Shown one piece after another: positions 11,758-37,123 of a stretch of DNA of 56,514 bases. The position numbers were made by a program, and so were the translations under genes. Source of the DNA: an uncultured Verrucomicrobiota bacterium (lineage in GTDB: Bacteria > Verrucomicrobiota > Verrucomicrobiia > Limisphaerales > J093). Numbering within the stretch: position 1 is the first letter of the stretch; the number at the start of each line of letters is the position of its first letter. Below the pieces are notes generated by a model. The model searched no databases. It was not told the DNA's origin and worked only from the letters and a program-made list of their open reading frames with translations. The DNA lies in NCBI GenBank assembly GCA_964472515.1, contig CAYYMW010000003.1:1-56514 (forward strand). The letters run 5' to 3'.

Positions 11758-13158
11758 TCACAGCTTCAGGCGGAAGAAGCGGGCGGCCTCTGTCGGGGCC
11801 ATGGTCCAGGGGGTCTGTGCACCCGTTTCATTCTGCCACGGGCCTGCGGGTGTGGGGGCGCTTTGCAGGGTGCCGGAGTTCCACCGCAGGGCCAAGACGG
11901 TGCCGATGCGAACGATACTCAGCTTCGGGGTTACCCGGCCAGTGCGCTGAGGGTTTTGCCGGAACATTGGCCACGGGCTGTCGGCAGGCGGGGAGTCGCC
12001 TTTGAGGGCGTAGACCTTCCCGTCGAAGGACGAGATGTAGACCGTGCCGTCCGCGCCGATGACGGGTGACGCAGTCACCATGCCGCCGGTCTGAAATACC
12101 CAGCGCAGCTCGGCCGTCGTGCTGTCGATGGCGTAGAGTTTAGAGTCATCGGAACCCACATAGACGGTGCCGTCCGCAGCCACCGCAGGGGAGGAGGATA
12201 CGGCACCAGTGGTGGAGTACTCCCAGAGCCTTTCCCCGGTGACGCCGTTGAAGGCGTGGAGCTTGAAGTCGTCACCACCGACGAACACGGTTCCGTCCGC
12301 TCCGACGGCTGGAGAGGACTCCACCGGCATGGTGATGGGGAACGCCCAGCGCTTCTGGCCGGACTGAGCGTCCAAGGCGTAGAGGTTGAAGTCCACCGAT
12401 CCGATGTAGACGACGCCGTTCGCCCCCAGAGCGGGCGAGGCGGTGACCATCTCCCCCGTCAAGAAGCTCCAGCGGATTTGCCCGGTGCGGCCGTCCAAGG
12501 CGTAGACCCGTTTGTCCCACGAGCCGAAGTAGACCGTTCCGTCGGCGCCAATGGCGGGAGAGGAGGTGACGGAAGACTCTGTGGCGAAGCGCCAGCGGCG
12601 TTGACCGGTGGCGGCGTCCACGGCGTGAATGGCTCCGTCAAATGAAGCAACAAGCACCGTGCCGTCGGCCGTGAGAGCGGGGGAGGAGGAAACGGGGGCC
12701 TGGCAGTCGTAGGTCCAACCCCGGCTGCCGGAACCGCCGGCCAAGGCAATCAGGCTGCCGTCGGCCACGCCGACATAGACCGTTCCGTCTTGGCCGACGG
12801 CCGGGGCCGTGTCGATCCAATTTCCGGCCAGAAATTCCCAGCGTTTCTCGCCGGTGGCGCCTTCCAGGGCATAGAGCTTGTTGTCATGCGATCCCACATA
12901 GACCGTGCCGTCCGCGCCGAGGGCGGGCGAGGAATCCATGTAGCTGCCAGTGGCGAACTCCCAGAGCTTGACGCCGGGAGGGATGGGTGCCGGAGCAGTC
13001 TCGGCGGGAGGAGAGGGACTCGTTGTTGTCTGCCCCGCCATGGCAGAGTTGCCTGGAGCATGGGCCAAGGCGAGGAGCAACGCGCAAATCGGCCAAGACG
13101 GTGTCGTGCCCGGGTGGCCAAGCCCAGTCTGCCTGCATCTCAACAGGGCCGCATTCAT
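11758..13158 (-). CDS. PQQ-like beta-propeller repeat protein with C-terminal RFFRL domain
   Basis: About eight repeats of SSPA(I/L/V)xxDGTVY(V/F)GSxDxxLYA(L/I)DxxTG..W; signal peptide; start 13158 (ORF extends to 13212). Confidence 0.9.
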   Translation of the reverse strand: MNAALLRCRQTGLGHPGTTPSWPICALLLALAHAPGNSAMAGQTTTSPSPPAETAPAPIPPGVKLWEFATGSYMDSSPALGADGTVYVGSHDNKLYALEGATGEKRWEFLAGNWIDTAPAVGQDGTVYVGVADGSLIALAGGSGSRGWTYDCQAPVSSSPALTADGTVLVASFDGAIHAVDAATGQRRWRFATESSVTSSPAIGADGTVYFGSWDKRVYALDGRTGQIRWSFLTGEMVTASPALGANGVVYIGSVDFNLYALDAQSGQKRWAFPITMPVESSPAVGADGTVFVGGDDFKLHAFNGVTGERLWEYSTTGAVSSSPAVAADGTVYVGSDDSKLYAIDSTTAELRWVFQTGGMVTASPVIGADGTVYISSFDGKVYALKGDSPPADSPWPMFRQNPQRTGRVTPKLSIVRIGTVLALRWNSGTLQSAPTPAGPWQNETGAQTPWTMAPTEAARFFRLKL

Positions 13159-13239
13159 AAGTGCCTTCGCGACAGGATATGGATGTTCTGAGGTGGCAAG
13201 GACTACCACCAATCACGCACCGCCGCCAGCCTTTCCTGC

Positions 13240-22338: not shown

Positions 22339-22546
22339 AGATCCGCAGGCTACGCCGGGGCCCAACCGCACGCCAGCAAACTCTGGCATGCGGGGCAAGA
22401 GCGCTGCTGGCGCCCACTTGACAGCGCCTGGGAGGCTTGGAGCATAGTCTCACGGGTAGTGCTTGTCGTTGCCGAACCGCCTTACCGATGGATAGGCTCG
22501 AGGTGTCGACTAGAGGGCAACTACAGCCGGGGCACATATCAACATT

Positions 22547-23182
22547 ATGAATGGCAAATGGCTTATTTTGATTCTGTTAACAACCCTTGTAGGCGTGCTG
22601 AGCGGATGCGGCACCATCCCCCCCGCCACCGTGACACCCCAGGCCATTCGAAATCCGAAGGTGGGTTACGACGGGTATGAACTTCGCATCCCCGACGGCT
22701 ATCGCGTGGCGGACATCAAGACCAACGCACCGGAGGTCGACCTCACGCTCAGCGCCAACGCGACCTGGCTTCAAGAACGGGCAAGGCAGCAACAGGGGGC
22801 CGGCGGACGTGTTCTCTTCTACGAGAGTTATCTCGTTTTCAACGGCAAGTTCACGGTGCTCTTCGCTGCCAAGGCCATGCAATTGCAGGGTCCTGCCATC
22901 AGCATGCTATCCGATTTCCAAGTGCGGCACACCCTTGAGCGGGAAATGGAATGGTGGCGCGAGTACACCAGCGGGCGGGAGGTGGTGACGGTGGGCGATC
23001 ACCTGGCGGGTTGGGTGACCATTGACCGTGTCCCCGACCTGCGCCCGAGCACGGCTTGCCGCGTCGTCCTTGTCCCAGGCAAGTACAACGAGGTCTTTTT
23101 CTTCGTTGCCTGCTCAGCCACTGAGGACAAGGACGGCCTTGACCCGTTCCTGCAGGACTTGGTGCGCGGCCTGAAGTTCTAG
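22547..23182 (+). CDS. Hypothetical lipoprotein
   Basis: Lipobox LSG|C after a basic and hydrophobic leader. Confidence 0.7.
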   Translation: MNGKWLILILLTTLVGVLSGCGTIPPATVTPQAIRNPKVGYDGYELRIPDGYRVADIKTNAPEVDLTLSANATWLQERARQQQGAGGRVLFYESYLVFNGKFTVLFAAKAMQLQGPAISMLSDFQVRHTLEREMEWWREYTSGREVVTVGDHLAGWVTIDRVPDLRPSTACRVVLVPGKYNEVFFFVACSATEDKDGLDPFLQDLVRGLKF

Positions 23183-23370
23183 GCCCCGGAACTGATTCAG
23201 CCCGGGTTCATCGCGTCAGGCCTTCCGACACCCCGGTGTACAGCGACGGAGGCTGGCTGTGCCCGGCCCAACGTCCCTCACGCATCCCCCACGGGGTCGA
23301 GAGCGCCACCACGAGCCCGTCGGTCTGCTTTTGACCTGCTTCCCCCGTTCCCGATGGCTATTCTCCCCCC

Positions 23371-23939
23371 ATGACGGCACGATGCGTGATTGTGGTGGGC
23401 GGAGGAGCGGCGGGATTCTTCGCCGCGATCGCCTGCGCCGAGGCGCGCCCGTATGTCGAGGTCACTGTGATCGAGAAAGGCGCCCAATTCCTTTCAAAAG
23501 TGAAGATCTCCGGCGGCGGCCGCTGCAACGTCACCCACGCCTGCTTTGAGGCTCGCGAACTCGCCGCCCACCACCCGCGCGGCAGCCGCGAATTGATCGG
23601 GCCCTTCCAGCGGTTCCAACCTCGGGACACCGTTGCGTGGTTCGCCCAGCGGGGCGTGAAGATGTATACCCAGCCTGACGGCTGCCTCTTTCCCGTCACT
23701 GACTCCTCCCAGACGATTGTCGATTGCCTCCTCCAGGCAGCCCGCCAAGTGGGCGTCCGGTTGCGCACCCAAAGCGGAGTCGAGCGCATCACCCGCTAGC
23801 CGGGGGAGGCTTCACGGTCGCCTCGACCGGCGGAGAAACCCTCACCTGCGAGCGCCTCCTCCTAGCCACCGGCGGCTTCAACTTCCAGGCCGCCTGGACC
23901 ACCGGGTGGTTCGCCGGCCGCGCCATGGCGGGGGATTAG
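23371..23939 (+). pseudogene. HI0933/YhiN/BaiN-family flavoprotein pseudogene (frameshift plus large internal deletion)
   Basis: GGGAAG, KVKISGGGRCNVT, GCLFP, then TAG at 23797-23799. The next frame continues LAGGGF...LLLATGG and joins directly to the family's C-terminal motif GGFNFQAAWTTG, so roughly half the protein is missing. Confidence 0.85.
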
Positions 23940-23941
23940 GC
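23892..23941 (+). repeat. Direct repeat, left copy (3' end of the HI0933 gene)
   Basis: gcctggaccaccgggtggttcgccggccgcgccatggcgggggattaggc; 48/50 identical to 26143-26192. Confidence 0.95.
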
Positions 23942-23945
23942 AAGA

Positions 23946-24599
23946 TCAGTAACTCCTCAGCAACTTCGGTCCCAGCAGTCGCTCCACCAACCGATATACC
24001 CGAGTGCCAGTCCGCTCCGGCCAATATCCCTTGGGATGATCGGCGTCCCCCTCCAGCGAACGGGCTCGACGAACGGCCTCCTTTACCTTATCGGCCGGGT
24101 AGTGCTCAGCTTTGAGGCGGGTCTTGTTGAACTCGCCCAAAACCCGGCGCAACCGCTTGTCGACTTCACTACCGCCTCCCAAGACATGCCCTGGAGCAAC
24201 GTCCTCGTGGTGCAAAAGGAGCCAGAGGTCGAAGCAGGGATTGCTCATCGCGATCTGAACGCCTCGCCGACGCGCCCGACTCAATGCGTCTGTCAGGCCC
24301 TTTCGGTGGTTAGGCTCGACCCAGTGGTCAGTATCCAATAGTATCCAGAACTCGTCATCCTCGTTGGAATCGTAATGTTTGCGAGCCTCTTCCAACCGCT
24401 GGACCACGTGTCCCGGTGACGAGCGGCCCTCGCCTGCTGGGGTTTCAAGAACGAAGACGTGAATCCGAGTTTGGCCAAGGAAGTCGAAATACTGTTTGGG
24501 TGCGCAAGTATCCTCTGTCGCCACAAAGAACAGTCGGTCGTCCCGGTAGGTCATCTCTGACCGGGCCAATGGCCTCGGCTTACGGTGAAGAAGTCCCAT
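23946..24599 (-). CDS. rloB: RloB family protein (AbiLii-like, TOPRIM-like)
   Basis: FFVATED...KQYF, WILLDTDH, SNPCFDLWLLLHH, terminal T-x-V-Y-x-L-V-E. Confidence 0.9.
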   Translation of the reverse strand: MGLLHRKPRPLARSEMTYRDDRLFFVATEDTCAPKQYFDFLGQTRIHVFVLETPAGEGRSSPGHVVQRLEEARKHYDSNEDDEFWILLDTDHWVEPNHRKGLTDALSRARRRGVQIAMSNPCFDLWLLLHHEDVAPGHVLGGGSEVDKRLRRVLGEFNKTRLKAEHYPADKVKEAVRRARSLEGDADHPKGYWPERTGTRVYRLVERLLGPKLLRSY

Positions 24600-24602
24600 G
24601 GC

Positions 24603-25976
24603 TCAGGCCGGGTGAACCTCCTGCATCAGCCGGTCCAGATTCCCGAGGAACGGAATGGCGCCAAAGCGTCCCTCCAAGTAGCCCTTTTGGATGCGCAAAT
24701 CCTGCCGGACCTTGAAATCGGAGAGAGAATAGATCTCGGTGGCACCCGCCGGCGATTTCTCGGCAAACCAGATCTCATCCCGCCGAAGAAGGTCCAAGTC
24801 GAGCAGGTTCGACTCGTGCGTCGTAAGGATCAATTGACTGCCTTGGGGGCATCGTGTCGCCAAGAAGCACTCCAGGAACTTCCTCGCGAGCAGCGGGTGC
24901 AGGCTCCGATCAATCTCATCGATGACGTACACTCTGGGCCGACGGTGGAGGGAATCCAATGCCGGCACCAGATGTGCAAGGCGAATAGTGCCGTCTGACT
25001 CTTGATCGAATGGCAGGACGACCTTCTCGCCGGTCGTTGCCCTATGTTCGGCCTGGATGCTCAACTGTGCCACGCGACCATCTGGCATCCTCATGAGGGT
25101 GACTTCCGGCCCTTGCCGCAGCAGCGGGGAATACAGACTGTCGTGATCGACACCAGTGCCTGCTGCGGCCAATTCTTCGGGCGAGAGCCTGAGCGAACCT
25201 AAGTTAAGCTCTCGGGCCTCGGTTCGGACACCGTCGATCCCAGTACCCGCCTCAAACAAGAACCGCCCGAGAAAGCCCGCGAACTCCTCGTCATGGATCA
25301 ATGTTGGAGCCAGCCTTATGTATTGGGAATCGGGCGGTACTACCGCCACCCCCTCGTTGAACCACTCCAAGACCGGTCGGATGAGGGGACCTTGACCAGT
25401 CCCCTCCACGTTCTTCCAGATCGCGGTCAGGAACAACTGATTGCGACGAACCCCAATGGAAGCCAGAGCTTCGATCTTGCGATGATCGCCTCGCTTCGGA
25501 TCGGACAGGTCTTTTCCCAATTCGACTTTGACCTCGCCCTCCGTGGTCAACCGCTCGAACAGCAAACGTTCCCTCTCACCATCGAGCAGCGATAGCCACT
25601 CAGTCGCAACTTCCTTCTCTGTCACCCCAAAACCGTAAACGTACGCTCCCTCCGCAGCGCTAAACCGGTACTCCAACTTGGTGGGGTTCGCCGCCATCTG
25701 GGAATCCATCGCGAACCGCTGCCGCGGGATCGGCGCATCCGGGTTGGTGCCTTCGAGAATCAAGCGCTGCCCAAACTCGAAGGCCTTCACCCAGTTCGAC
25801 TTGCCGGAGCCGTTTGCACCGTAAAACACGGCTACAGGCAGCAGGTCGTGATCTGTCCCGGCCAAGGGCGTTACGTGGGCGGGGTGGTGGCTGCCCAATC
25901 GCTTGCTGGCGACCATTGAAAGCGTCTGCTCTTCGGCAAACGATCTGAAGTTCGCAACGCTGAAGGAAATCAACAT
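24603..25976 (-). CDS. AAA_21/ABC-type ATPase (RloA/AbiLi-like)
   Basis: MLISFSVANFRSF, Walker A YGANGSGKS, signature QESDGT, Walker B YVIDEIDRSLHP, H-loop TTH, terminal YLEGRFGAIP. Confidence 0.92.
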   Translation of the reverse strand: MLISFSVANFRSFAEEQTLSMVASKRLGSHHPAHVTPLAGTDHDLLPVAVFYGANGSGKSNWVKAFEFGQRLILEGTNPDAPIPRQRFAMDSQMAANPTKLEYRFSAAEGAYVYGFGVTEKEVATEWLSLLDGERERLLFERLTTEGEVKVELGKDLSDPKRGDHRKIEALASIGVRRNQLFLTAIWKNVEGTGQGPLIRPVLEWFNEGVAVVPPDSQYIRLAPTLIHDEEFAGFLGRFLFEAGTGIDGVRTEARELNLGSLRLSPEELAAAGTGVDHDSLYSPLLRQGPEVTLMRMPDGRVAQLSIQAEHRATTGEKVVLPFDQESDGTIRLAHLVPALDSLHRRPRVYVIDEIDRSLHPLLARKFLECFLATRCPQGSQLILTTHESNLLDLDLLRRDEIWFAEKSPAGATEIYSLSDFKVRQDLRIQKGYLEGRFGAIPFLGNLDRLMQEVHPA

Positions 25977-26142
25977 GGTGCGTGTTTTTCGCAAATGCCC
26001 ACCCAGAAGCGCAGTAATCGACGCCATTAGTGGGCGATGCTTGCGAATTTATCACAACAATCTACGGAGATCAACATGAGGGATGTTTGATCGAGGCTTC
26101 ACGGCCTCAGGCCCGGCCTGCCTTAAGGGCTGATCGTGTAAT

Positions 26143-26192
26143 GCCTGGACCACCGGGTGGCTCGCCGACCGCGCCATGGCGGGGGATTAGGC
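26143..26192 (+). repeat. Direct repeat, right copy (displaced duplicate of the HI0933 3' end)
   Basis: gcctggaccaccgggtggctcgccgaccgcgccatggcgggggattaggc; two mismatches versus the left copy. Confidence 0.95.
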
Positions 26193-26204
26193 CCAGTATC
26201 CGCC

Positions 26205-26690
26205 TCACGGGTCGAAGAACACATCCACCGACACGTACGCCTTCCCCTTTTCCGGGAACTCTTTGGTGTAACCCGCCTGGCCAAGACTGACGGCATCCAC
26301 GGCCACGTCGGTTACCATCTCCAACACCCCCGAAGCGGCCCTGGAATAGCGGCCGGCGGCCTCGAAGCGCAAGCTCCCGAGGCTCCGTGGCGGCAGCACC
26401 AGCGAGCGCTGGTTGTCGGCCTTGTTGGCGGAGAAGCGCACGGTCGAGCCATCCATCCGCACGTCGCAAATCGCTGCCACCAGGTCCGTGCGGCCGTCCA
26501 CCAAACCGATGCGCTTCTTCTGGGTTACGGCGACGTTGCTGACGGTAACCGTCCTGGTCTGTCCGGTGATGTCCTTGACCTGGATCTCTCCCTGGCGTTC
26601 GATGGAAACGCTGATCTCCCCCACCTTGACACTCCGCTTCTCCAACGCAAGACGCTGAAACGCGGCATCCTGCGGAAACCGTTCCGTCAT
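26205..26690 (-). CDS. Hypothetical beta-rich protein, possibly the 3' fragment of a broken gene
   Basis: Protein-like composition and GC-skewed codons; no signal peptide; upstream frames interrupted by stops. Confidence 0.45.
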   Translation of the reverse strand: MTERFPQDAAFQRLALEKRSVKVGEISVSIERQGEIQVKDITGQTRTVTVSNVAVTQKKRIGLVDGRTDLVAAICDVRMDGSTVRFSANKADNQRSLVLPPRSLGSLRFEAAGRYSRAASGVLEMVTDVAVDAVSLGQAGYTKEFPEKGKAYVSVDVFFDP

Positions 26691-26740
26691 CAACCAAGCG
26701 TAATGAGCGGGATCTCAAGCCTTCTCCTCACGCAATCCGA

Positions 26741-27004
26741 TCAATTGGGAAACCAGTTTGTCCGCAGCCGTCGAGGCTTGGGGGCTTCCTCCTGCAACGG
26801 CACCCGGTATGCGTGTAGCGCGTCCTCGACTCGCCCCTGTCCCAGCGCGCTGGCCACTTCTCGCTCTGCTTCCTGCAAGCGCTGCCGTTGCGCTTCACGC
26901 TCCCTTGGCGCGGGCTCCTCCTCGGCACGCCGCTGATGCAGACGTTCTCGTTCTATCTCGACGCACTGCTTTTCCTCGCGGCGAGCTAGGTCGTGTTCGG
27001 GCAC
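26741..27004 (-). pseudogene. E/R-rich coiled-coil fragment, possible upstream piece of a degraded gene
   Basis: EREAQRQRLQEAEREVASAL helix, then loss of protein-like character near 26800. Confidence 0.25.
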
Positions 27005-27100
27005 TTGCGCTGGATCAGGCGTTGCGGGCCTGGCTGCCCGGCTGGGGTTGGACAGGGCGGGTCTGGTGAAATCGAGTCTGCGCGAAGCTGCAAATTACCC

Positions 27101-27128
27101 TTGCGTGGCGTGACGAGGACGTTACATT
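27101..27128 (+). promoter_or_regulatory. Candidate sigma70 promoter of the prs operon
   Basis: TTGCGT-N16-TACATT about 75 nt upstream of the prs GTG. Confidence 0.4.
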
Positions 27129-27150
27129 CCCCTCCTGCTGGTTGACGTCG

Positions 27151-27180
27151 AATCCACCGTGCGCGGTGGATTTTTGTTTT
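27151..27180 (+). terminator. Terminator-like hairpin + U tract in the prs leader
   Basis: aatccaccg-tgcg-cggtggatt followed by tttgtttt. Confidence 0.5.
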
Positions 27181-27201
27181 TCAACCCAAAGACAATCCGC
27201 T

Positions 27202-28146
27202 GTGAAAATCTTCAGTGGCAGTTCTAACTTGCCTCTGGCCAAAGCCATCTGCAAGGCCATCGGCATCGAACTCGGCCGGTGCGAGGTCTCGCAATTCCCG
27301 GATGGGGAGACCTTTGTCAAGATCGAGGACAACGTCCGCGGGGCGGATACCTTCGTCGTCCAATCCACCAGCCCGCCGACGAACCATCATCTGATGGAGA
27401 TGTTCATCATGATCGATGCGTTGCGGCGCGCGAGCGCGTCCCGCATCACCGCCGTCCTGCCTTTCTACGGTTACGCGCGACAGGACCGCAAGGACCAGCC
27501 GCGGGTTCCGATTACCGCCAAGCTGGTCGCCAATCTTCTCGTGGCCGCAGGCGCCAACCGGGTCCTCACCATGGATTTGCACGCCCAGCAGATTCAGGGG
27601 TTCTTCGATATCCCGGTGGATCATCTCTACGCTGCGCCGGTCATTTACGAGTACCTGCACCGCAAGAACCTGCCCGACCTGATCGTCGTCAGCCCGGACG
27701 TTGGCGGCATCAAGATGGCCCATGCCTACGCCCAGGTGCTGGGCACCGAGTTGGCCATCGTCGCCAAGCGCCGCAAGAGCCCGACGGAGGTGGAGTCCAT
27801 GACCGTGATTGGGGACGTGGCCGGCCGCAACGTGCTGCTCGTGGACGACTTGACGGAAACCGCGGGCACGCTGACCGCCGCCGCCACGATTCTCAAGAAG
27901 GGCGGCGCCAAGAACGTGATGGCGTGCGTCAGCCACGCGATCCTCAACGATTTGGCCATCACGCGGCTCAAAAAATCTATTATTGACGAACTCATCACGA
28001 CTGATAGTGTGTGCCGCCCCGCCATAGACGGGGTGAATATCACCACGCTAAGCGTGGCGGGTTTGCTGGGCGAAGCGATTCAGCGGATTCATATGAATTC
28101 GTCGGTGACTTCGCTGTTTGAATTTAAGGGCGGGCGCGTCGGTTAG
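27202..28146 (+). CDS. prs: Ribose-phosphate pyrophosphokinase
   Basis: GTG start KIFSGSSN; FPDGE, PFYGYARQDRK, MDLHAQQIQGFF, VSPDVGG, VDDLTETAGT. Confidence 0.97.
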   Translation: MKIFSGSSNLPLAKAICKAIGIELGRCEVSQFPDGETFVKIEDNVRGADTFVVQSTSPPTNHHLMEMFIMIDALRRASASRITAVLPFYGYARQDRKDQPRVPITAKLVANLLVAAGANRVLTMDLHAQQIQGFFDIPVDHLYAAPVIYEYLHRKNLPDLIVVSPDVGGIKMAHAYAQVLGTELAIVAKRRKSPTEVESMTVIGDVAGRNVLLVDDLTETAGTLTAAATILKKGGAKNVMACVSHAILNDLAITRLKKSIIDELITTDSVCRPAIDGVNITTLSVAGLLGEAIQRIHMNSSVTSLFEFKGGRVG

Positions 28147-28174
28147 CGCGCCGCCTTGCGCAACAGGATAACGC

Positions 28175-28975
28175 ATGAAATCAGTACCGTTGACGGTCTT
28201 CCCGCGGACTGCGGTGAAACGCTCCGGCGTCAAGAAACTGCGGACCGGCGGCCGCGTGCCAGCCGTGATTTACGGCCGCCGCCGCCCGCCCCAGAACCTC
28301 GAGCTCAAAGCCAAGGAACTCGAGGATCTGCTCCATCACTCCGCCTCGGAGAATATTCTCCTCAACCTGACGGTGAGCGGCGATGCCGAGCCCACCCGGC
28401 TGGCTTTGGTGCAGGATATCCAGCACCATCCCATGGGCGGCCACATGCTCCACGTCGATCTCCACGAGGTCGCGGAAGACGAGCGGGTGACCATTCTGGT
28501 GCCCGTCGAGAGCGTGGGCGAGGCCGCCGGAGTCAAGAATGGCGGCGTGCTCGAGCACGTGCTGTTCAAGCTGCGTGTGCGCGCCCTGCCGAAGGATTTG
28601 CCCGAGTACATCACCATCGACGTGTCCCACCTGGAGATCGGCCAGGCGGTTCACATCGGTGAGATCAAGCCGCCTGCGGACACGGAGATTCTGGGCGACA
28701 AGCACATTTCCGTGGTGGCCGTGGCGGCGCCGATCTCCGAGGAACAGGAAGCGGCAGCCGAAGCGGCATCTGACACGGCCTTGGGCGAACCCGAGGTTCT
28801 CACCGAGAAGAAGGAAGAAGGCGAAGAAGGAGCGGCCCCCAAGGCGGGGGAGAAGGCTCCAGCCAAGCCCGGCGAGAAAGCGGCTGCGGCCAAGCCCGGC
28901 GACAAGGCAGCTCCGGCGGCCAAGGCGGGCGAAAAGGCCCCTGCCGCCGAGAAGAAGCCCGAGAAGAAGAAGTAA
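28175..28975 (+). CDS. rplY: 50S ribosomal protein bL25 / general stress protein Ctc
   Basis: RVPAVIYG, DIQHHP...HVD, VGEAAGVKNGG, LEIGQAVHI; A/K/P/E-rich tail. Confidence 0.95.
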   Translation: MKSVPLTVFPRTAVKRSGVKKLRTGGRVPAVIYGRRRPPQNLELKAKELEDLLHHSASENILLNLTVSGDAEPTRLALVQDIQHHPMGGHMLHVDLHEVAEDERVTILVPVESVGEAAGVKNGGVLEHVLFKLRVRALPKDLPEYITIDVSHLEIGQAVHIGEIKPPADTEILGDKHISVVAVAAPISEEQEAAAEAASDTALGEPEVLTEKKEEGEEGAAPKAGEKAPAKPGEKAAAAKPGDKAAPAAKAGEKAPAAEKKPEKKK

Positions 28976-33099: not shown

Positions 33100-33598
33100 G
33101 CTGCGTTCCCGATGCCTCGGGCAGGGGATGTCCCGTGCTGAAGCCGGTCGGCAACCGGGCATAAAGGGCCGGACGATAGTGCTGGATCAGGGCCGCCAGC
33201 CAGTGGCGCATGAAGATCCAAAGCCAATCGCGCCCGCCGTTGCCCGAACCGCGCAGCCGCCGACGGACGCCGGCATTCGTGGCATAGACCGCCTCCGCGC
33301 GATCCATCAGTTTGAGTTGCCACTCGCGCGGCAATTCCTCCCCCAGCCAGACGCAGACTTCCTCCCACACACCGGTAGCCACGATAGCCGGCACGAGCAC
33401 GGTCTCCTCCGCAATCCGTGGCGGATGCGGCCAGGCAGGCCAATCTCCGGGGCCGGTGGGGCCTTCGATCTCCTGGAGGAGCGAGGAGGCCGGGCTCTGG
33501 CGCGTGGGTTTGGCGGTTCCGCCGGAAGCGCGCTTGGAAGCGGAGCGCAGGCCTTTTGGCCGAATGCAGGGCGGCTGGCAGGTGGCTGGAGAGTTCAT
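33083..33598 (-). CDS. Hypothetical protein directly downstream of the RM gene
   Basis: C-terminal half is protein-like (W-rich helix RDWLWIFMRHWLAALI); N-terminal half low complexity, true start uncertain; overlaps the metW stop by 17 nt. Confidence 0.45.
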   Translation of the reverse strand: MNSPATCQPPCIRPKGLRSASKRASGGTAKPTRQSPASSLLQEIEGPTGPGDWPAWPHPPRIAEETVLVPAIVATGVWEEVCVWLGEELPREWQLKLMDRAEAVYATNAGVRRRLRGSGNGGRDWLWIFMRHWLAALIQHYRPALYARLPTGFSTGHPLPEASGTQLRWRG

Positions 33599-33602
33599 GC
33601 TT

Positions 33603-33626
33603 GAGACTCCTTACGTGGTCTCCTGA
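33603..33626 (+). repeat. 24-bp palindromic-element arm that supplies the RM gene stop codon
   Basis: gagactccttacgtggtctcctga, 21/24 to the reverse complement of 35149-35172; the minus strand reads QETT-TAA. Confidence 0.8.
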
Positions 33627-36600
33627 GGAGAGGTTGGGGGTGGGGCAGGATCGCCTTCGACGATCTTGATTTCGGCTTCGGTGAGGCCGTAAAGGTCGTA
33701 AACGAGGCGGTCAATCTGGGTGTCGGTGGCCGCGATCTGGCGGGCGAGGGCGGTCTGCTCCTGCGGGGTTCGCGCGGCGGCGGCCTGCTGGTGCAGCGCC
33801 AGCATTTGCTCGACCAGCTTCACCATGCGGTCGCGGCGGGATTTGTCCGAGGGGTTCGACGAATCGATGACGCGGATGGGAACGCGCTCCATGTACTGGT
33901 AAATGAGGCGATAGCGGAACTCCCCCGCGCGGATTCCGAAAGGGATGCTGAGGTTGGCGATCGCAAACCAGAACACCCGGCTGTTCAGCACCCCCAGCAG
34001 ATAAGGGTCGTCAGTGCCAAGGCAATAGGCGGTGTTGGCGAGGTAGTGAGCGCCGGAGTCAAGGCTGAAGCGAGGCCCCTTACAGATGTCGGGAAAGATG
34101 ATCTTCGGCTGGCTGAACGCCTCGTAGTACGCCACGTCGTCCTGAATCTCGTACCATTCGTAGCGTCCAGGTTTGCGCCCTCGCTTCGCGCTCTTGTCCC
34201 GTTTCGGGGTCAAATCCTCCTTCCATTGCGCCAAGTGATCGCGGATCGCTGGATACCTGTCGATCTCGACTCCGCGCCGCGTGAAGATGATCCAGAGTCC
34301 GGTTTCGTGGAAGATGAACCGACGAATATCCTCTCCACCGAGCAGGGGGTGAATCAGCTCAGCGCTCCGTCTGTCTTTGGCAATGAGCCGCTTCCTCGTC
34401 TCCGCATCGATGATGAACGCCTCGTTCATTCCCGTCTTGATGCCGTAGAACATCCTCCGTTCAACATACTCCCCCAGCGGTTTGCCGGCTTTCATCACCT
34501 TGGCAAAGACGGCGGCTTCGGCGTCAGACTTCAGCGACCACGCCTCGGCCGAGAGGCGCTCGTGGGGAATTGTGTAATGATGGGCGACCACATGCTCGGC
34601 CAGCTTCAAGCTCTTCAACGACGTCACCTTGGATACCTCGACCCGCGTGGGTTTCGCGCCCTTGCCGAGCAGGGGGATGCAGACGTAGGTGTCTTTGGCG
34701 TTGGCGAAGACTGCCAGGCCGCCAAAGTCCACGATGCGCCGCACTGCCGCGTGCTGCTTCAGCGTGCGCCGGAGCGGTTCACCGTAAGACGCGCGAAGGA
34801 AACTGCTGGAGACGATGATGCTGAAGAGTCCGCCCTCGCGCAGGAGCTTGACACCCTGCTCCATGAAGTAGGCGTAGAGGTCCGCGGTGCCATCATACGC
34901 TTGGTAGTGCCTCTCGAAGTAGTCCTTGAGGTGGGACAGCGATTCCTGGCGAACATACGGCGGGTTGCCGATGACGGCATCAAAGCCGCCTTCCCAGGCG
35001 GGCTCGGCCGGTGGCGCCGGGGGCGGTGCCTTGGCGCCCTTCGACTGCTTGTAGCTGTAGCTGCCATGCACCGGCACGCCGGGCATCCCAAAGTCCAAGG
35101 GCGAGGCGGCGGCGGTTTCCCGCAGGGCGCCGTCGTCGCCCTCACCAGGTAGGAGACGACGTAAGGAGTCTCTGTCTAGTTCTTCCGAAGATGCTTGAGA
35201 CTCGTCACCTCGTCTCCTACGGAAGACCTGCGGGAACTCGGTTGGCCAGTCGAACACGTTCAGACGGAACCGTTCCTCGTCGTCGAGCAGGGCCATCTGC
35301 TGCTGGGCGTAGAAGTCCGGGCCGATCAGGGAGTTGCCGCACTTGATGTTGTCGCCGAGGTCGGGCAGGGCGCGCTCCTGCGAGAAGCGGAACACCGTTT
35401 GCAGGCTCTGTTCGGTTTCCCCTTCCAGCACCTTCAACAGGAGGGACAACTTGGTGACCTCGACGGCCTGGGCATCGATATCGACTCCAAAAATGTGGTT
35501 GAGGAGAATCTGCTTGCGGGTGGCGATGGTCAGTTTCCACCCACCGCCGCTGGTCTGGACGATGGGCGGGTTCTTGCCGCGCAAGAGCCAGTGACCACGC
35601 GTCGCATTGGCAGGCGGCGACGTAGGGAGTCTCGCTTCCTTCCCAGGCGGCTGCAAGAGAGTCTCGCTACCTCGACTCCCACCCTCAGCGTGACCAGGCA
35701 GGGCGGTTTGAGTCTCGTTACCTCGACTCCTACCCGCAGCGTGGCCGAGGAGCCGGGTGTAGAAGTCCAGGTGCCAGTCGAGAAGGTACTGGTAAGCGCC
35801 GATGAGGAACGAGCCTGACCCGCAGGCGGGATCGAGGATGCGCAGTTTGGCGACGCGGCCGAGGATTGCCATGGCCGTCCGGGAATCGCAGGCGGCAGGA
35901 GGCGGCGCCTTGCCCGCTCCAGAGCGGACGGGAGTCTCGTTGCCCCGATTCCCACCCAAGCAGTCCTCGACGAGTTTGCCCACCGTCTGGCGGACGATGT
36001 AGTCCACGATGTAGGTGGGGGTGTAATAGACGCCCCCGGCCTTCTTGACCTCCGGCTTGTCGTCCACCACGGCCCGGTGCCCTTCGGTCAACCGGATGAC
36101 TTTGCCGAGAAACTGTTCGTACACTTGGCCAAGGATGTCGGCCGAGACGACTTCGAAGGCGTAGGGGCAGTCCGGGTAGTACAGGCTGCGCAGGAGGTCG
36201 CGCAGGAGTTTGTCGTCGAGGTCGAGAGTCCGCGTCAGTTCGTCGGGAGCCTCGTGCCGGTCCTTCTCAGGCTTGAAGTGGAACAGGCCGGAGTTGTAGC
36301 GGGCGTCAGCGGCTTCGAACACCTCGCAAAGGCGCGGGTAGACGCGCTCGCCGTTGACGAGGGCGCGGAGGCGGCCGTAATCCTCGATCCCGCGGTCCTC
36401 GCAGATGCGCAGGAAGATGATGCGGTCGATGATGCGCTGGACCGCGAAGTTGAGTTCGCGCTGGGTAAGGTTGGGATTGCGGAGCGCGAGGTTGCGGGCC
36501 AGTTCCAGCCGCCAGCCTTCAATGGTCTCCAGAAAGGCCTGGTCGAAGGTGGTGGTGCCCTTTTTGGCCTTGGTGGACTCGGCGAATTGATCGAACCCGC

Positions 36601-37123
36601 CCTTGAGGACGGCGTCGCGGGAAAAGCGCTCGCAAATCCAGTCCCATTTCTCCGCGTAGTCGCGGAAGGTGCAGTAGAAGATGCGGGCCTTGGCCGCTGG
36701 ATCGTCCTTGTGCGGCTTGTAGCGACCGTCATAGACCGCGAACTCCTCGAAGTCGCTCAGCAGGCTCAGCGGCAGCTTGGCGGTAAAGGCGTAACGGCGG
36801 AGTTGGAAGGCGGGGCCCACGTCTCGATGGACATCCACCGACGGACGTTTGGCCTCCAGAAAGAACTTGCGCGTGCCGCCGATGCGGAAGGAATAGTCGG
36901 GCGCCCGGACCTCGCGGCCAATGCGGAGGACGTCTTCATGGATCACATCCCGGTAGGCCTCGGCGTAACCCTGCTCGTTGTCCATGTCCCAGCCCAGCGC
37001 TTTGAAGAAGGGATCGAGGAAATCGCGGCGGACCTGGGTCTCGTTGTAGGCGCCGGCTTTGTAGGCGTCGAGTTGCTGCCCAAAGCGGGCGACCAAGTCG
37101 AGGATAGCAGCAGGAGCCGGCAT
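33611..37123 (-). CDS. Type IIG restriction-modification enzyme (fused REase + m6A MTase + TRD; Eco57I/TaqI-like)
   Basis: PDY...LEAKRP nuclease motif, YNSGLF, GVYYTP, LDPACGSGSFL (motif I), FGVDID, VIGNPPY (motif IV), TaqI-C-like KIIFPDI. Confidence 0.93.
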   Translation of the reverse strand: MPAPAAILDLVARFGQQLDAYKAGAYNETQVRRDFLDPFFKALGWDMDNEQGYAEAYRDVIHEDVLRIGREVRAPDYSFRIGGTRKFFLEAKRPSVDVHRDVGPAFQLRRYAFTAKLPLSLLSDFEEFAVYDGRYKPHKDDPAAKARIFYCTFRDYAEKWDWICERFSRDAVLKGGFDQFAESTKAKKGTTTFDQAFLETIEGWRLELARNLALRNPNLTQRELNFAVQRIIDRIIFLRICEDRGIEDYGRLRALVNGERVYPRLCEVFEAADARYNSGLFHFKPEKDRHEAPDELTRTLDLDDKLLRDLLRSLYYPDCPYAFEVVSADILGQVYEQFLGKVIRLTEGHRAVVDDKPEVKKAGGVYYTPTYIVDYIVRQTVGKLVEDCLGGNRGNETPVRSGAGKAPPPAACDSRTAMAILGRVAKLRILDPACGSGSFLIGAYQYLLDWHLDFYTRLLGHAAGRSRGNETQTALPGHAEGGSRGSETLLQPPGKEARLPTSPPANATRGHWLLRGKNPPIVQTSGGGWKLTIATRKQILLNHIFGVDIDAQAVEVTKLSLLLKVLEGETEQSLQTVFRFSQERALPDLGDNIKCGNSLIGPDFYAQQQMALLDDEERFRLNVFDWPTEFPQVFRRRRGDESQASSEELDRDSLRRLLPGEGDDGALRETAAASPLDFGMPGVPVHGSYSYKQSKGAKAPPPAPPAEPAWEGGFDAVIGNPPYVRQESLSHLKDYFERHYQAYDGTADLYAYFMEQGVKLLREGGLFSIIVSSSFLRASYGEPLRRTLKQHAAVRRIVDFGGLAVFANAKDTYVCIPLLGKGAKPTRVEVSKVTSLKSLKLAEHVVAHHYTIPHERLSAEAWSLKSDAEAAVFAKVMKAGKPLGEYVERRMFYGIKTGMNEAFIIDAETRKRLIAKDRRSAELIHPLLGGEDIRRFIFHETGLWIIFTRRGVEIDRYPAIRDHLAQWKEDLTPKRDKSAKRGRKPGRYEWYEIQDDVAYYEAFSQPKIIFPDICKGPRFSLDSGAHYLANTAYCLGTDDPYLLGVLNSRVFWFAIANLSIPFGIRAGEFRYRLIYQYMERVPIRVIDSSNPSDKSRRDRMVKLVEQMLALHQQAAAARTPQEQTALARQIAATDTQIDRLVYDLYGLTEAEIKIVEGDPAPPPTSPQETT
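35149..35220. repeat. 72-bp inverted-repeat element inserted in frame in the RM gene
   Basis: Arms gtaggagacgacgtaaggagtctc (35149-35172) and gagactcgtcacctcgtctcctac (35197-35220), 21/24 complementary, 24-bp spacer. Confidence 0.9.
35610..35733. repeat. Cluster of three more 24-bp arms (one inverted pair plus a copy at 51-bp period) in the RM gene
   Basis: 35610-35633 gcaggcggcgacgtagggagtctc; 35659-35682 gagtctcgctacctcgactcccac; 35710-35733 gagtctcgttacctcgactcctac. Confidence 0.85.
35932..35955. repeat. Degenerate solo 24-bp arm in the RM gene
   Basis: gagtctcgttgccccgattcccac, translated as GNRGNET. Confidence 0.7.

What the first reader, a model, noticed from the sequence alone, without database searches (positions are those of the whole stretch)
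23892..26192. AbiL-like defence pair sits in a 2.25-kb cassette bounded by a 50-bp duplication of a protein gene's 3' end, with no integrase
Seen: the last 48 nt of the HI0933-family gene (through TAG) plus 2 nt recur 2251 bp downstream with two mismatches, and similarity stops sharply on both sides. Only an AAA_21 ATPase and an RloB gene lie between the copies; the RloB stop is 4 nt from the left copy. Established: integrative elements duplicate the 3' end of their target gene (attL/attR), and AAA_21 + RloB is the architecture of the lactococcal AbiL abortive-infection system. Inference: this is either a minimal defence cassette integrated in trans at a non-tRNA att site, or the relic of a larger island. 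The two mismatches suggest it is not recent.
Basis: partly seen in the sequence, partly recalled or inferred. Interest (0 to 1): 0.72.

Follow-up and report, generated by a model that had tools for sequence, protein, structure and literature searches.

The report
AbiL defence pair with duplicated target
A two-gene AbiL-type phage-defence operon was inserted long ago just after a flavoprotein gene, duplicating 50 bases of its target; there is no integrase, and the pattern matches the "insertion with long target duplication" so far described for restriction-modification genes.

Summary
A 50-nt direct repeat (48/50 identical, only two copies in the 56.5-kb window) brackets a 2,201-nt insert. The insert holds only AbiLi (ABC/AAA_21 ATPase), AbiLii (RloB) and their upstream control region. 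The RloB stop lies 4 nt from the left copy.

One correction: the HI0933 "gene" is a pseudogene, with a 1-nt frameshift/stop near 23797 and a 660-nt internal deletion ending at 23867.

The arrangement is real and old. A contig from the same sample spans both junctions, and relatives about 99% and about 90% identical carry the cassette with both repeat copies.

I found no integrase, tRNA, terminal inverted repeats, excised form or reuse of the 50-mer. The pair sits inside a 4.68-kb strain-variable segment (22385-27064), which relatives about 95% identical replace with 357 unrelated nt.

Among 80 AbiLi loci from other phyla, three more minimal AbiL cassettes are tightly bracketed by unrelated direct repeats of 45-209 nt, again without recombinases.

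The best reading is an integrase-independent insertion with long target duplication, not an att-site integration. No clean one-copy empty site was found, so the mechanism stays inferred. I class it as a new member of a known kind, of moderate interest.

The parts
22385..27064 (.). Strain-variable segment between the GH36 gene and prs. It holds the lipoprotein ORF, the HI0933 pseudogene, the AbiL cassette and orf162. Relatives about 95% identical have 357 unrelated nt here.
   Evidence: blastn of L086-L092 against the window: homology ends at 22384 and resumes at 27065 (27053 in L092)
22547..23182 (+). 211-aa ORF with a lipoprotein-like signal (…LSGC). No family hit.
   Evidence: called as a gene in Logan contig L002
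23371..23939 (+). HI0933-family flavoprotein pseudogene. The N-terminal 142 codons end at TAG 23797-23799 after a probable 1-nt deletion. A 660-nt (220-codon) internal deletion has its junction at 23866/23867. The last 24 codons are intact.
   Evidence: loose ends '...GELLDIDGI' before 23867 from intact genes in other organisms
23892..23941 (+). Left copy of the 50-nt direct repeat: the last 48 nt of HI0933 through TAG, plus GC. T at 23910 is private to this strain; it is C in runs X1-X4.
23946..24599 (-). AbiLii / RloB-family protein (217 aa), the putative TOPRIM-type effector. The DxD motif (D89, D91) is present. D124 stands where at least 90% of 65 homologues have E.
   Evidence: Pfam RloB 2.3e-27; PADLOC AbiLii 3.4e-18; alignment
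24603..26027 (-). AbiLi, an ABC/AAA_21 ATPase (longest ORF 474 aa). The homology-supported start is M18, ATG 25976-25974. Walker A, Walker B and H-loop are intact.
   Evidence: PADLOC AbiLi 5.4e-88; Pfam AAA_21; 80-sequence alignment
25977..26142 (-). Cassette-borne upstream region (115 nt from ATG 26027, 166 nt from ATG 25976). It holds GTGATAAATTCGC at 26043-26055, a one-mismatch copy of the palindrome GTGA-N5-TCAC conserved upstream of AbiLi in other phyla.
26143..26192 (+). Right copy of the 50-nt repeat, a displaced non-coding copy of the HI0933 3' end. A at 26168 (Gly to Asp) departs from the orthologue consensus.
26093..26117 (+). Possible further HI0933-derived remnant, colinear and in frame with the right repeat copy. 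Uncertain.
   Evidence: score 25 against shuffle mean 16.4; 2 of 500 shuffles reach it
26205..26693 (-). orf162, function unknown, convergent with the original HI0933 3' end. It is part of the variable segment.

Best explanation
The 2.2-kb unit (23942-26142) is a self-contained AbiL defence operon.

What it encodes (shown): its own upstream control region, AbiLi (an ABC-type ATPase) and AbiLii/RloB.

How it probably defends (inferred by analogy with PARIS): RloB is taken to be a TOPRIM/OLD-type nuclease. The ATPase senses a phage cue and releases or activates the nuclease.

How it got here (inferred):
- It entered an ancestor of this Verrucomicrobiota lineage immediately after the stop codon of an HI0933-family gene.
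- Entry was by an integrase-independent, illegitimate event that duplicated at least 50 nt of the target. This is 'insertion with long target duplication' (ILTD), the mode described for restriction-modification cassettes.
- The chemistry is unknown. Candidates are staggered breaks with fill-in, or template switching.

What followed:
- The arrangement was inherited vertically (shown for relatives about 99% and about 90% identical).
- Each repeat copy then picked up one point mutation.
- In the window's lineage the target gene decayed through a frameshift and a 660-nt microhomology deletion.
- The repeats now share exact runs of only 24-25 nt, so RecA loop-out should be rare. This fits stable retention.
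For: Cassette identity.

The duplication arose in situ:
- The repeat is unique and significant.
- Both copies differ from the orthologue consensus AWTTGWLAGRAMAGD* by one derived change each. 23910 is C in the sister strain, so the copies were once identical at the nucleotide level. The same 48 coding nt in orthologue L005 (about 60-67% protein identity) differ at 8 positions, by direct comparison of the sequences. The duplication therefore happened within this lineage.

No mobility apparatus:
- No recombinase, tRNA or terminal inverted repeats.
- The 50-mer is not reused elsewhere.

Foreign origin: cassette GC is 0.58-0.60 against 0.64-0.67 in the flanks.

Age:
- X1-X4 contigs are colinear across the left junction. 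Contigs from X3 and X4 also cover the right repeat and its flank.
- In the relative about 90% identical (X6), a 2271-nt unitig ends exactly inside both repeat copies, as expected for k=31. The copies are identical over repeat positions 1-41.

Recurrence:
- Of 80 AbiLi loci, 74 have RloB directly downstream.
- Three others are tightly bracketed by unrelated direct repeats: L083, 209 nt; L011, about 45-54 nt; L019, 153 nt, which is the 3' end of pgl.
- The RloB stop is 5 nt (L083) and 0 nt (L011) from the repeat, against 4 nt in the window.
- Inverted-orientation and shifted controls score at background.

Literature: ILTD is defined by direct repeats over 30 bp, an insert under 20 kb and no mobility genes. 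Some examples overlap gene 3' ends (PMC2853133).
Against: [quoted passage not shown] That is the defining proof of target duplication.
- The P5-study strain shows divergent HI0933 and orf162 alleles and no cassette coverage, but no contig crosses the junction.
- Only 4 of about 65 testable AbiL loci show tight repeats, so most insertions either lack them or have lost them.
- ILTD is a descriptive class. Its mechanism has never been shown.
- A 50-nt identity ending just past a stop codon is also what an att site at a gene's 3' end looks like.
- Only assembled contigs were available, not raw reads, so rare excised circles cannot be excluded.
Confidence: 0.55

Rival explanations
1. The repeats are attL/attR of a site-specific integrative element. 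Either the pair is a relic left after the integrase and other genes were deleted (a CIME-like cis-mobilisable element), or it is a minimal cassette moved in trans by a tyrosine or serine recombinase encoded elsewhere.
For: The repeat covers the last 48 nt of a protein gene plus 2 nt and restores its stop codon, the classic design of elements that target gene 3' ends. Cassette GC is lower than the flanks. AbiLi relatives occur on some viral or prophage contigs.
Against: No recombinase lies between the repeats, in the 4.68-kb variable segment, or within about 10 kb on either side. The degenerate 48-mer is absent from GTDB species genomes and IMG/VR. Its one metagenome hit shows a single copy followed by HicAB, with no island. 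Three further AbiL cassettes have different repeats of different lengths and kinds (intergenic, a gene's 5' region, a 3' end). In two of them, as in the window, the RloB stop abuts the repeat, which independent decay would not produce repeatedly.
Confidence: 0.22
2. Campbell-type integration. A circular copy (cassette plus one repeat) looped out of a sibling genome by recombination between the repeats, was taken up, and re-integrated by RecA-dependent single crossover at the homologous HI0933 3' end. This regenerates the flanking repeats. It explains spread within a species, not the first event.
For: The geometry is exactly what a single crossover produces. The locus is mosaic between strains: breakpoints at 23172 and about 27235 in the P5-study strain, and whole-segment replacement in relatives about 95% identical. 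Homologous exchange therefore does act here.
Against: Fifty nt is near the lower limit for efficient homologous recombination. No circle or empty junction was seen in any contig set. Cassette divergence from the relative about 90% identical (about 8%) is similar to that of the flanks, as expected for vertical descent.
Confidence: 0.1
3. One-step homology-facilitated illegitimate recombination. Donor DNA carrying HI0933-3'end, AbiL and orf162 was anchored by homology on the right and joined on the left at the ACCGGCGG microhomology. The 660-nt HI0933 deletion arose in the same event.
For: The deletion's right edge (23867) is only 25 nt from the left repeat and lies in an 8-nt microhomology (ATGG / ITGG).
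Against: In the relative about 90% identical (X6), which has the cassette and both repeat copies, every contig covering 23867 onward is preceded by the intact '...GELLDIDGI' sequence. None is preceded by the window's deletion junction, so the deletion looks later and lineage-specific. This model also does not explain the second repeat copy.
Confidence: 0.05

Closest known systems
Insertion with long target duplication (ILTD) of restriction-modification gene complexes (Nobusato et al. 2000, cited as ref. 37 in Furuta, Abe & Kobayashi 2010, PMC2853133)
   Same: A complete nuclease-encoding defence unit under 20 kb is flanked by a unique direct repeat over 30 bp made of local target sequence, with no transposase or integrase. 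Repeat length varies between events (about 45 to over 400 bp). Some published repeats overlap the 3' end of a gene, as here.
   Different: The cargo is an Abi-type ATPase plus RloB pair, not an R-M system. No empty-site genome was available to prove the duplication. Here the insertion is ancient and fixed in several lineages.
Lactococcal AbiL (AbiLi/AbiLii), Campylobacter RloA/RloB, and the PARIS (AriA/AriB) class of ABC-ATPase plus TOPRIM/OLD defence systems (PMC13064643)
   Same: Two-gene operon with the ATPase first and RloB second. PADLOC and Pfam models match. ATPase motifs are intact.
   Different: Phylum Verrucomicrobiota, and chromosomal rather than plasmid-borne. The closest homologue found in the GTDB species genomes is 53% identical (L006); the large protein database could not be searched. 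AbiLii carries D at a position where at least 90% of homologues have E. No phenotype is known.
CIMEs (cis-mobilisable elements): decayed integrative elements that keep attL/attR at a gene's 3' end but lack integrase. Recalled from my own knowledge of Streptococcus thermophilus ICESt1/fda; not checked in the library.
   Same: Direct repeats at the 3' end of a protein gene bracket accessory or defence cargo without a recombinase.
   Different: No cognate integrase-bearing element and no reuse of the site were found. Other AbiL cassettes use unrelated repeats.

Membership tests
AbiL defence system (PADLOC AbiLi + AbiLii) | AbiLi-type ABC/AAA_21 ATPase with intact nucleotide-binding motifs | tested here: met
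   PADLOC AbiLi 5.4e-88 and Pfam AAA_21 9.2e-28. Walker A G70-N78, Walker B I369-D-E371 and H-loop T402-E405 are conserved in an 80-sequence alignment.
AbiL defence system (PADLOC AbiLi + AbiLii) | RloB/AbiLii gene directly downstream in the same operon | tested here: met
   Pfam RloB 2.3e-27 and PADLOC AbiLii 3.4e-18. A 3-nt gap separates the ORFs. The same pairing occurs in 74 of 80 related loci.
AbiL defence system (PADLOC AbiLi + AbiLii) | TOPRIM/OLD-type nuclease fold and catalytic residues in AbiLii | tested here: inconclusive
   DxD (D89, D91) is conserved, but D124 replaces a glutamate conserved in at least 90% of homologues. phmmer against PDB gave no significant match, best E = 0.24. 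The single-sequence AlphaFold model had pLDDT 43 and was unusable. The fold assignment rests on the literature (PMC13064643).
AbiL defence system (PADLOC AbiLi + AbiLii) | Abortive-infection or anti-phage phenotype | not testable with these tools
   Needs a phage challenge.
Insertion with long target duplication (criteria of PMC2853133) | Direct repeat over 30 bp flanking an insert under 20 kb that holds the complete system | tested here: met
   A 50-nt repeat and a 2201-nt insert holding both genes and their upstream region.
Insertion with long target duplication (criteria of PMC2853133) | No mobility genes in or beside the insert; the repeat is not a multi-copy element | tested here: met
   No recombinase or transposase domains. 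Two copies only in the window. No other context in GTDB genomes, JGI metagenomes or IMG/VR. The whole genome of the organism could not be searched.
Insertion with long target duplication (criteria of PMC2853133) | A related genome with an empty site carrying one copy of the repeat | tested here: inconclusive
   Relatives about 99% and about 90% identical have the cassette. Relatives about 95% identical lack the whole 4.68 kb. The P5-study strain has divergent HI0933 and orf162 alleles and no cassette coverage, but no junction contig.
Site-specific integrative element / CIME (attL-attR) | Cognate integrase in the element or nearby, or the same att used by related elements | tested here: not met
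   None found.
Site-specific integrative element / CIME (attL-attR) | The repeat reconstitutes the 3' end of the target gene | tested here: met
   The left copy supplies the last 16 codons and the TAG, although the gene is now a pseudogene.
Site-specific integrative element / CIME (attL-attR) | Detectable excised circle or attB | tested here: inconclusive
   No joints in contigs of 18 runs. Raw reads were not available for these runs.
DNA transposon / IS | Terminal inverted repeats and a short (under 15 bp) target duplication | tested here: not met
   No inverted repeats at 23942 or 26142. The duplication is 50 nt.

The most novel reading that the evidence does not exclude
AbiL-type (ABC ATPase + RloB) operons could be autonomous mobile units. 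Their ends would be set by the operon itself, from the operator-bearing promoter to the RloB stop codon. Their own nuclease and ATPase would make staggered breaks 45-209 nt apart and promote insertion. This would be a recombinase-free, self-inserting class of defence element, and it would explain how defence genes reach hotspots free of mobile elements.
Probability: 0.07. Interest if true: 0.85.

Novelty: new member of a known kind. Interest (0 to 1): 0.45.

Why it matters
How defence systems arrive at chromosomal sites that carry no mobile-element genes is an open question. This locus and three parallel ones in other phyla suggest that Abi/PARIS-like ATPase-nuclease pairs can be inserted as bare two-gene cassettes with long target duplications. 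That mode had been documented only for R-M systems.

The bracketing repeats also mark out the minimal functional unit, from operator and promoter to stop codon. They give a simple computational signature that could pick out unknown defence pairs, such as the unannotated two-gene unit bracketed by 217-nt repeats next to AbiL in L046.

Tried and rejected
- The search for homologous proteins failed for AbiLi (time-out) and AbiLii (database switched off). Close AbiL homologues in the large protein database could not be retrieved.
- The degenerate 48-mer search gave 0 hits in genome contigs and viral contigs. Its one metagenome hit (L005) was uninformative for att reuse.
- Orthologous HI0933 contexts at 60-67% identity (L003, L004) are not syntenic, so they give no empty site.
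- Rfam and tRNA scans of the repeat-bearing loci found nothing.
- Metatranscriptome contigs gave no cassette coverage.
- The consensus promoter and terminator scan found nothing above chance.
- phmmer against PDB found nothing significant. The single-sequence AlphaFold model of AbiLii was too poor (pLDDT 43) for a fold search.
- Loci L035 (paralogous MazEF modules), L073 (beside RT-Cas1; the repeat also matches in inverted orientation) and L017 (extra gene and an AcrB fragment inside) were not counted as ILTD cases.
- An apparent identical 115-nt spacer in the window and L083 was dropped. The conserved start of the window's AbiLi is probably M18, which gives 166 nt.
- An apparent X5 contig carrying the deletion junction in another context turned out to be two unrelated short matches.
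- X5, X18, X19 and X24 coverage is too low to infer absence of the cassette.
Full report
**1. The observation**

The 50-nt repeat is real. It lies at 23892-23941 and 26143-26192, is 48/50 identical, and the copies are 2251 nt apart.
- It has exactly two copies in the window even with 3 mismatches allowed; shuffles give none.
- It is the only repeat of at least 28 nt in the 56.5 kb above 90% identity.

Between the copies lie two tightly packed minus-strand ORFs and nothing else.
- 24603-26027 is Pfam AAA_21 (9e-28) and PADLOC AbiLi (5.4e-88).
- 23946-24599 is Pfam RloB (2.3e-27) and PADLOC AbiLii (3.4e-18).
- The RloB stop is 4 nt from the left copy.

A Logan contig from the same sample (ERR3839026) matches 23517-28908 at 100%, so both junctions are physically linked.

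**2.

The HI0933-family gene is a pseudogene.
- ORF 23371-23799 covers only Pfam positions 3-136 of 244 and ends at a TAG.
- The sequence then continues in another frame as GGGFTVASTGGETLTCERLLLATGG|FNFQAAWTTGWFAGRAMAGD*.
- Full-length relatives read ...LLLATGGCRT...(220 codons)...DIDGITGGFNFQ.AWTTGWLAGRAMAGD*.
- So there are two lesions: a probable 1-nt deletion near 23797, and a 660-nt in-frame deletion between two ACCGGCGG (TGG) microhomologies, with its right edge at 23867.
- That edge is confirmed by contigs of other organisms' intact genes. They match from 23867 onward and are preceded by '...GELLDIDGI'.

The orthologue consensus for the last 16 codons has L and G where the left copy has F (T at 23910) and the right copy has D (A at 26168).
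- In the sister strain (runs X1-X4), 23910 is C.
- The two copies were therefore once identical at the nucleotide level.
- The same 48 coding nt in orthologue L005 (about 60-67% protein identity) differ at 8 positions, by my direct comparison.
- The duplication therefore arose within this lineage.

**3. Population context**

The organism is an uncultured Verrucomicrobiota bacterium. The best HI0933 hits are 60-72% identical, and one is named Limisphaerales. It is found in wastewater metagenomes.

Four kinds of relatives were informative.
- (a) Runs X1-X4, about 98-99% identical: contigs are colinear across the pseudogene, the left repeat and RloB. Contigs from X3 and X4 also cover the right repeat and its flank. 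There are no joints.
- (b) Run X6, a relative about 88-92% identical: a 2271-nt unitig runs from repeat position 12 of the left copy to position 30 of the right copy, and the right-flank unitig also starts at position 12. This is the exact signature, at k=31, of two copies identical over positions 1-41. Cassette divergence (about 8%) is similar to that of the flanks. The insertion therefore predates this split. In X6 no contig carries the window's deletion junction, so the HI0933 deletion is probably later.
- (c) Contigs L086-L092, about 95% identical in GH36 and prs: window 22385-27064 (4680 nt: lipoprotein ORF, pseudogene, AbiL, orf162) is replaced by 357 unrelated nt.
- (d) The P5-study strain (X8, X9, X29): about 100% identical up to 23172 and from about 27264 onward. 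In between it shows only divergent alleles (80-84%) of the HI0933 N-terminus and orf162, with zero coverage of the cassette. It may be the cassette-free state, but no contig crosses the junction.

The space between GH36 and prs is thus a strain-variable spot, and the AbiL unit is nested inside it.

**4. Tests of the att-site reading**

- There is no tRNA in the window.
- No inverted repeats lie at the cassette ends.
- No recombinase domain occurs in any ORF of the variable segment.
- None occurs in the genes called for about 10 kb on either side: glycoside hydrolases on the left; prs, ribosomal proteins, pth, ssb and metXW on the right.
- A degenerate pattern covering the 48 coding nt of the repeat (wobble positions free) has 0 hits in 185,579 species genomes and 0 in IMG/VR. 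Its 1 hit in JGI metagenomes is an intact HI0933 gene followed directly by a HicB/HicA pair, with a single copy.
- Cassette GC (0.58-0.60) is below that of the flanks (0.64-0.67), which fits a foreign origin.

**5. Comparison with other AbiL loci**

Eighty AbiLi loci (34-53% identity, many phyla) were fetched. RloB follows directly in 74 of them.

I searched the 2.5 kb on each side of the pair for direct repeats. Most loci score at the level of the inverted-orientation control. Besides the window, three loci have minimal cassettes tightly bracketed by strong repeats.
- L083 (Cryomorphaceae): a 209-nt non-coding repeat, 97.6% identical. It lies 115 nt upstream of AbiLi and 5 nt after the RloB stop.
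- L011 (Burkholderiaceae): a repeat of about 45-54 nt covering the 5' region of a 104-aa gene. It lies 155 nt upstream and 0 nt after the stop.
- L019 (Bryobacteraceae): a 153-nt repeat, 85% identical, which is the 3' end of the housekeeping gene pgl. RloB there is frameshifted. Its 86%-identical relative L028 keeps a rearranged second pgl fragment beyond a secondary IS66 insertion.

None of the three holds a recombinase or a tRNA. A locus-wide control found few other high-identity repeat pairs with 2-4 kb spacing.

The repeats are unrelated in sequence, length and kind. The cassette ends share no motif. Yet in the window, L083 and L011 the unit ends 0-5 nt after the RloB stop. This argues against independent erosion of larger islands and against a common att site. 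It argues for insertion of the bare operon with duplication of whatever target was hit.

**6. Match to the literature**

This is the pattern defined as 'insertion with long target duplication' for R-M gene complexes. The criteria are direct repeats over 30 bp, an insert under 20 kb and no other mobile element. Repeat lengths are variable, about 45 to over 400 bp, and some overlap gene 3' ends. The mechanism is unknown; the authors suggest it involves DNA breakage (PMC2853133).

AbiL is classed with PARIS and Campylobacter RloAB as an ABC-ATPase plus TOPRIM/OLD system whose mode of action is untested (PMC13064643).

**7. The proteins**

- AbiLi keeps Walker A (GANGSGKSN), Walker B (IDE) and the H-loop (TTHE).
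- The Met conserved among homologues is M18, so the true start is probably ATG 25976.
- AbiLii keeps the DxD motif but has D124 where at least 90% of 65 homologues have E.
- The TOPRIM fold could not be verified here.

**8. Verdict**

Shown:
- the repeat;
- the AbiL cargo;
- the absence of mobility genes;
- the age and vertical inheritance of the arrangement;
- the decay of the target gene;
- the nesting in a variable segment;
- the recurrence of repeat-bracketed minimal AbiL cassettes elsewhere.

Inferred: the repeats are a target duplication made by an integrase-independent insertion (confidence about 0.55).

Rivals:
- att relic or trans-mobilised cassette: 0.22;
- Campbell-type re-integration: 0.10;
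- one-step homology-facilitated illegitimate recombination: 0.05.

The missing decisive datum is a one-copy empty site.

Noticed in passing
window 26043-26055; loci L013, L020, L021, L024, L026, L028, L029, L033, L038, L040, L042, L044, L048, L060, L067, L068, L074, L075, L083 (130 nt upstream of AbiLi): A 13-nt palindrome, GTGA-N5-TCAC (often TGTGAAAWWTCACA), sits upstream of AbiLi in 19 of 46 loci from several phyla. It often occurs twice, near -87 and -25. The background is 0.011 per 130 nt. Many other loci, and the window (GTGATAAATTCGC), have one-mismatch versions. It looks like a cassette-borne operator. No separate regulator gene is present, so one of the two proteins may autoregulate.
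   Followed up: partly
L046 5173-7790: In a Pirellulaceae genome, a 217-nt direct repeat (92% identical, spacing 2403) brackets two unannotated genes (278 and 272 aa, with no significant Pfam or PADLOC match) immediately upstream of AbiL. This is a possible unknown defence pair inserted in the same way.
   Followed up: partly
L005 1157-1670: In the only metagenome contig with the same HI0933 C-terminus, the stop codon is followed directly by a HicB/HicA toxin-antitoxin pair. The spot just after this gene therefore takes small accessory modules in more than one lineage.
   Followed up: partly
window 26093-26117 vs 23806-23831: GAGGCTTCACGG plus partial continuation recurs 49 nt upstream of the right repeat copy, in the same frame and order as in the pseudogene (2 of 500 shuffles reach its score). 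If real, the original duplication was longer than 50 nt and the right copy has since been eroded.
   Followed up: partly
L019 7961-7981 and 10285-10305: The last about 20 nt of both copies of the pgl-derived repeat contain the operator-like palindrome (GTGAAATAATCAC / GTGAAATAGTCAC), with the pgl stop codon inside it. The duplicated block there seems to include cassette-side sequence, which simple target duplication does not explain.
   Followed up: no
window 23946-24599 (AbiLii residue 124): Aspartate replaces a glutamate conserved in at least 90% of 65 RloB homologues (motif NPCF-E-LW). The effector may be attenuated, or the change may be tolerated.
   Followed up: no
L073 1369-3819: An RT-Cas1 fusion gene lies about 1.8 kb upstream of an AbiL pair in a Bacteroidota contig. 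Repeats of 91 nt around that pair also match in inverted orientation.
   Followed up: no
window 12038-12967: Six diverged 123/246-nt periodic repeats (61-71% identity) lie inside the long minus-strand ORF 11758-13212. This is probably a repeat-domain protein.
   Followed up: no
window 33597-35968: Several 33-37-nt direct repeats (for example 35659-35695 and 35710-35746, 89% identical) lie within the 1170-aa minus-strand ORF 33611-37123.
   Followed up: no
L086 1986-2342, L092 170-539: In relatives lacking the 4.68-kb segment, the 357-nt replacement between GH36 and prs is conserved between two lineages and carries a 54-aa ORF. It has no similarity to the window's segment.
   Followed up: partly
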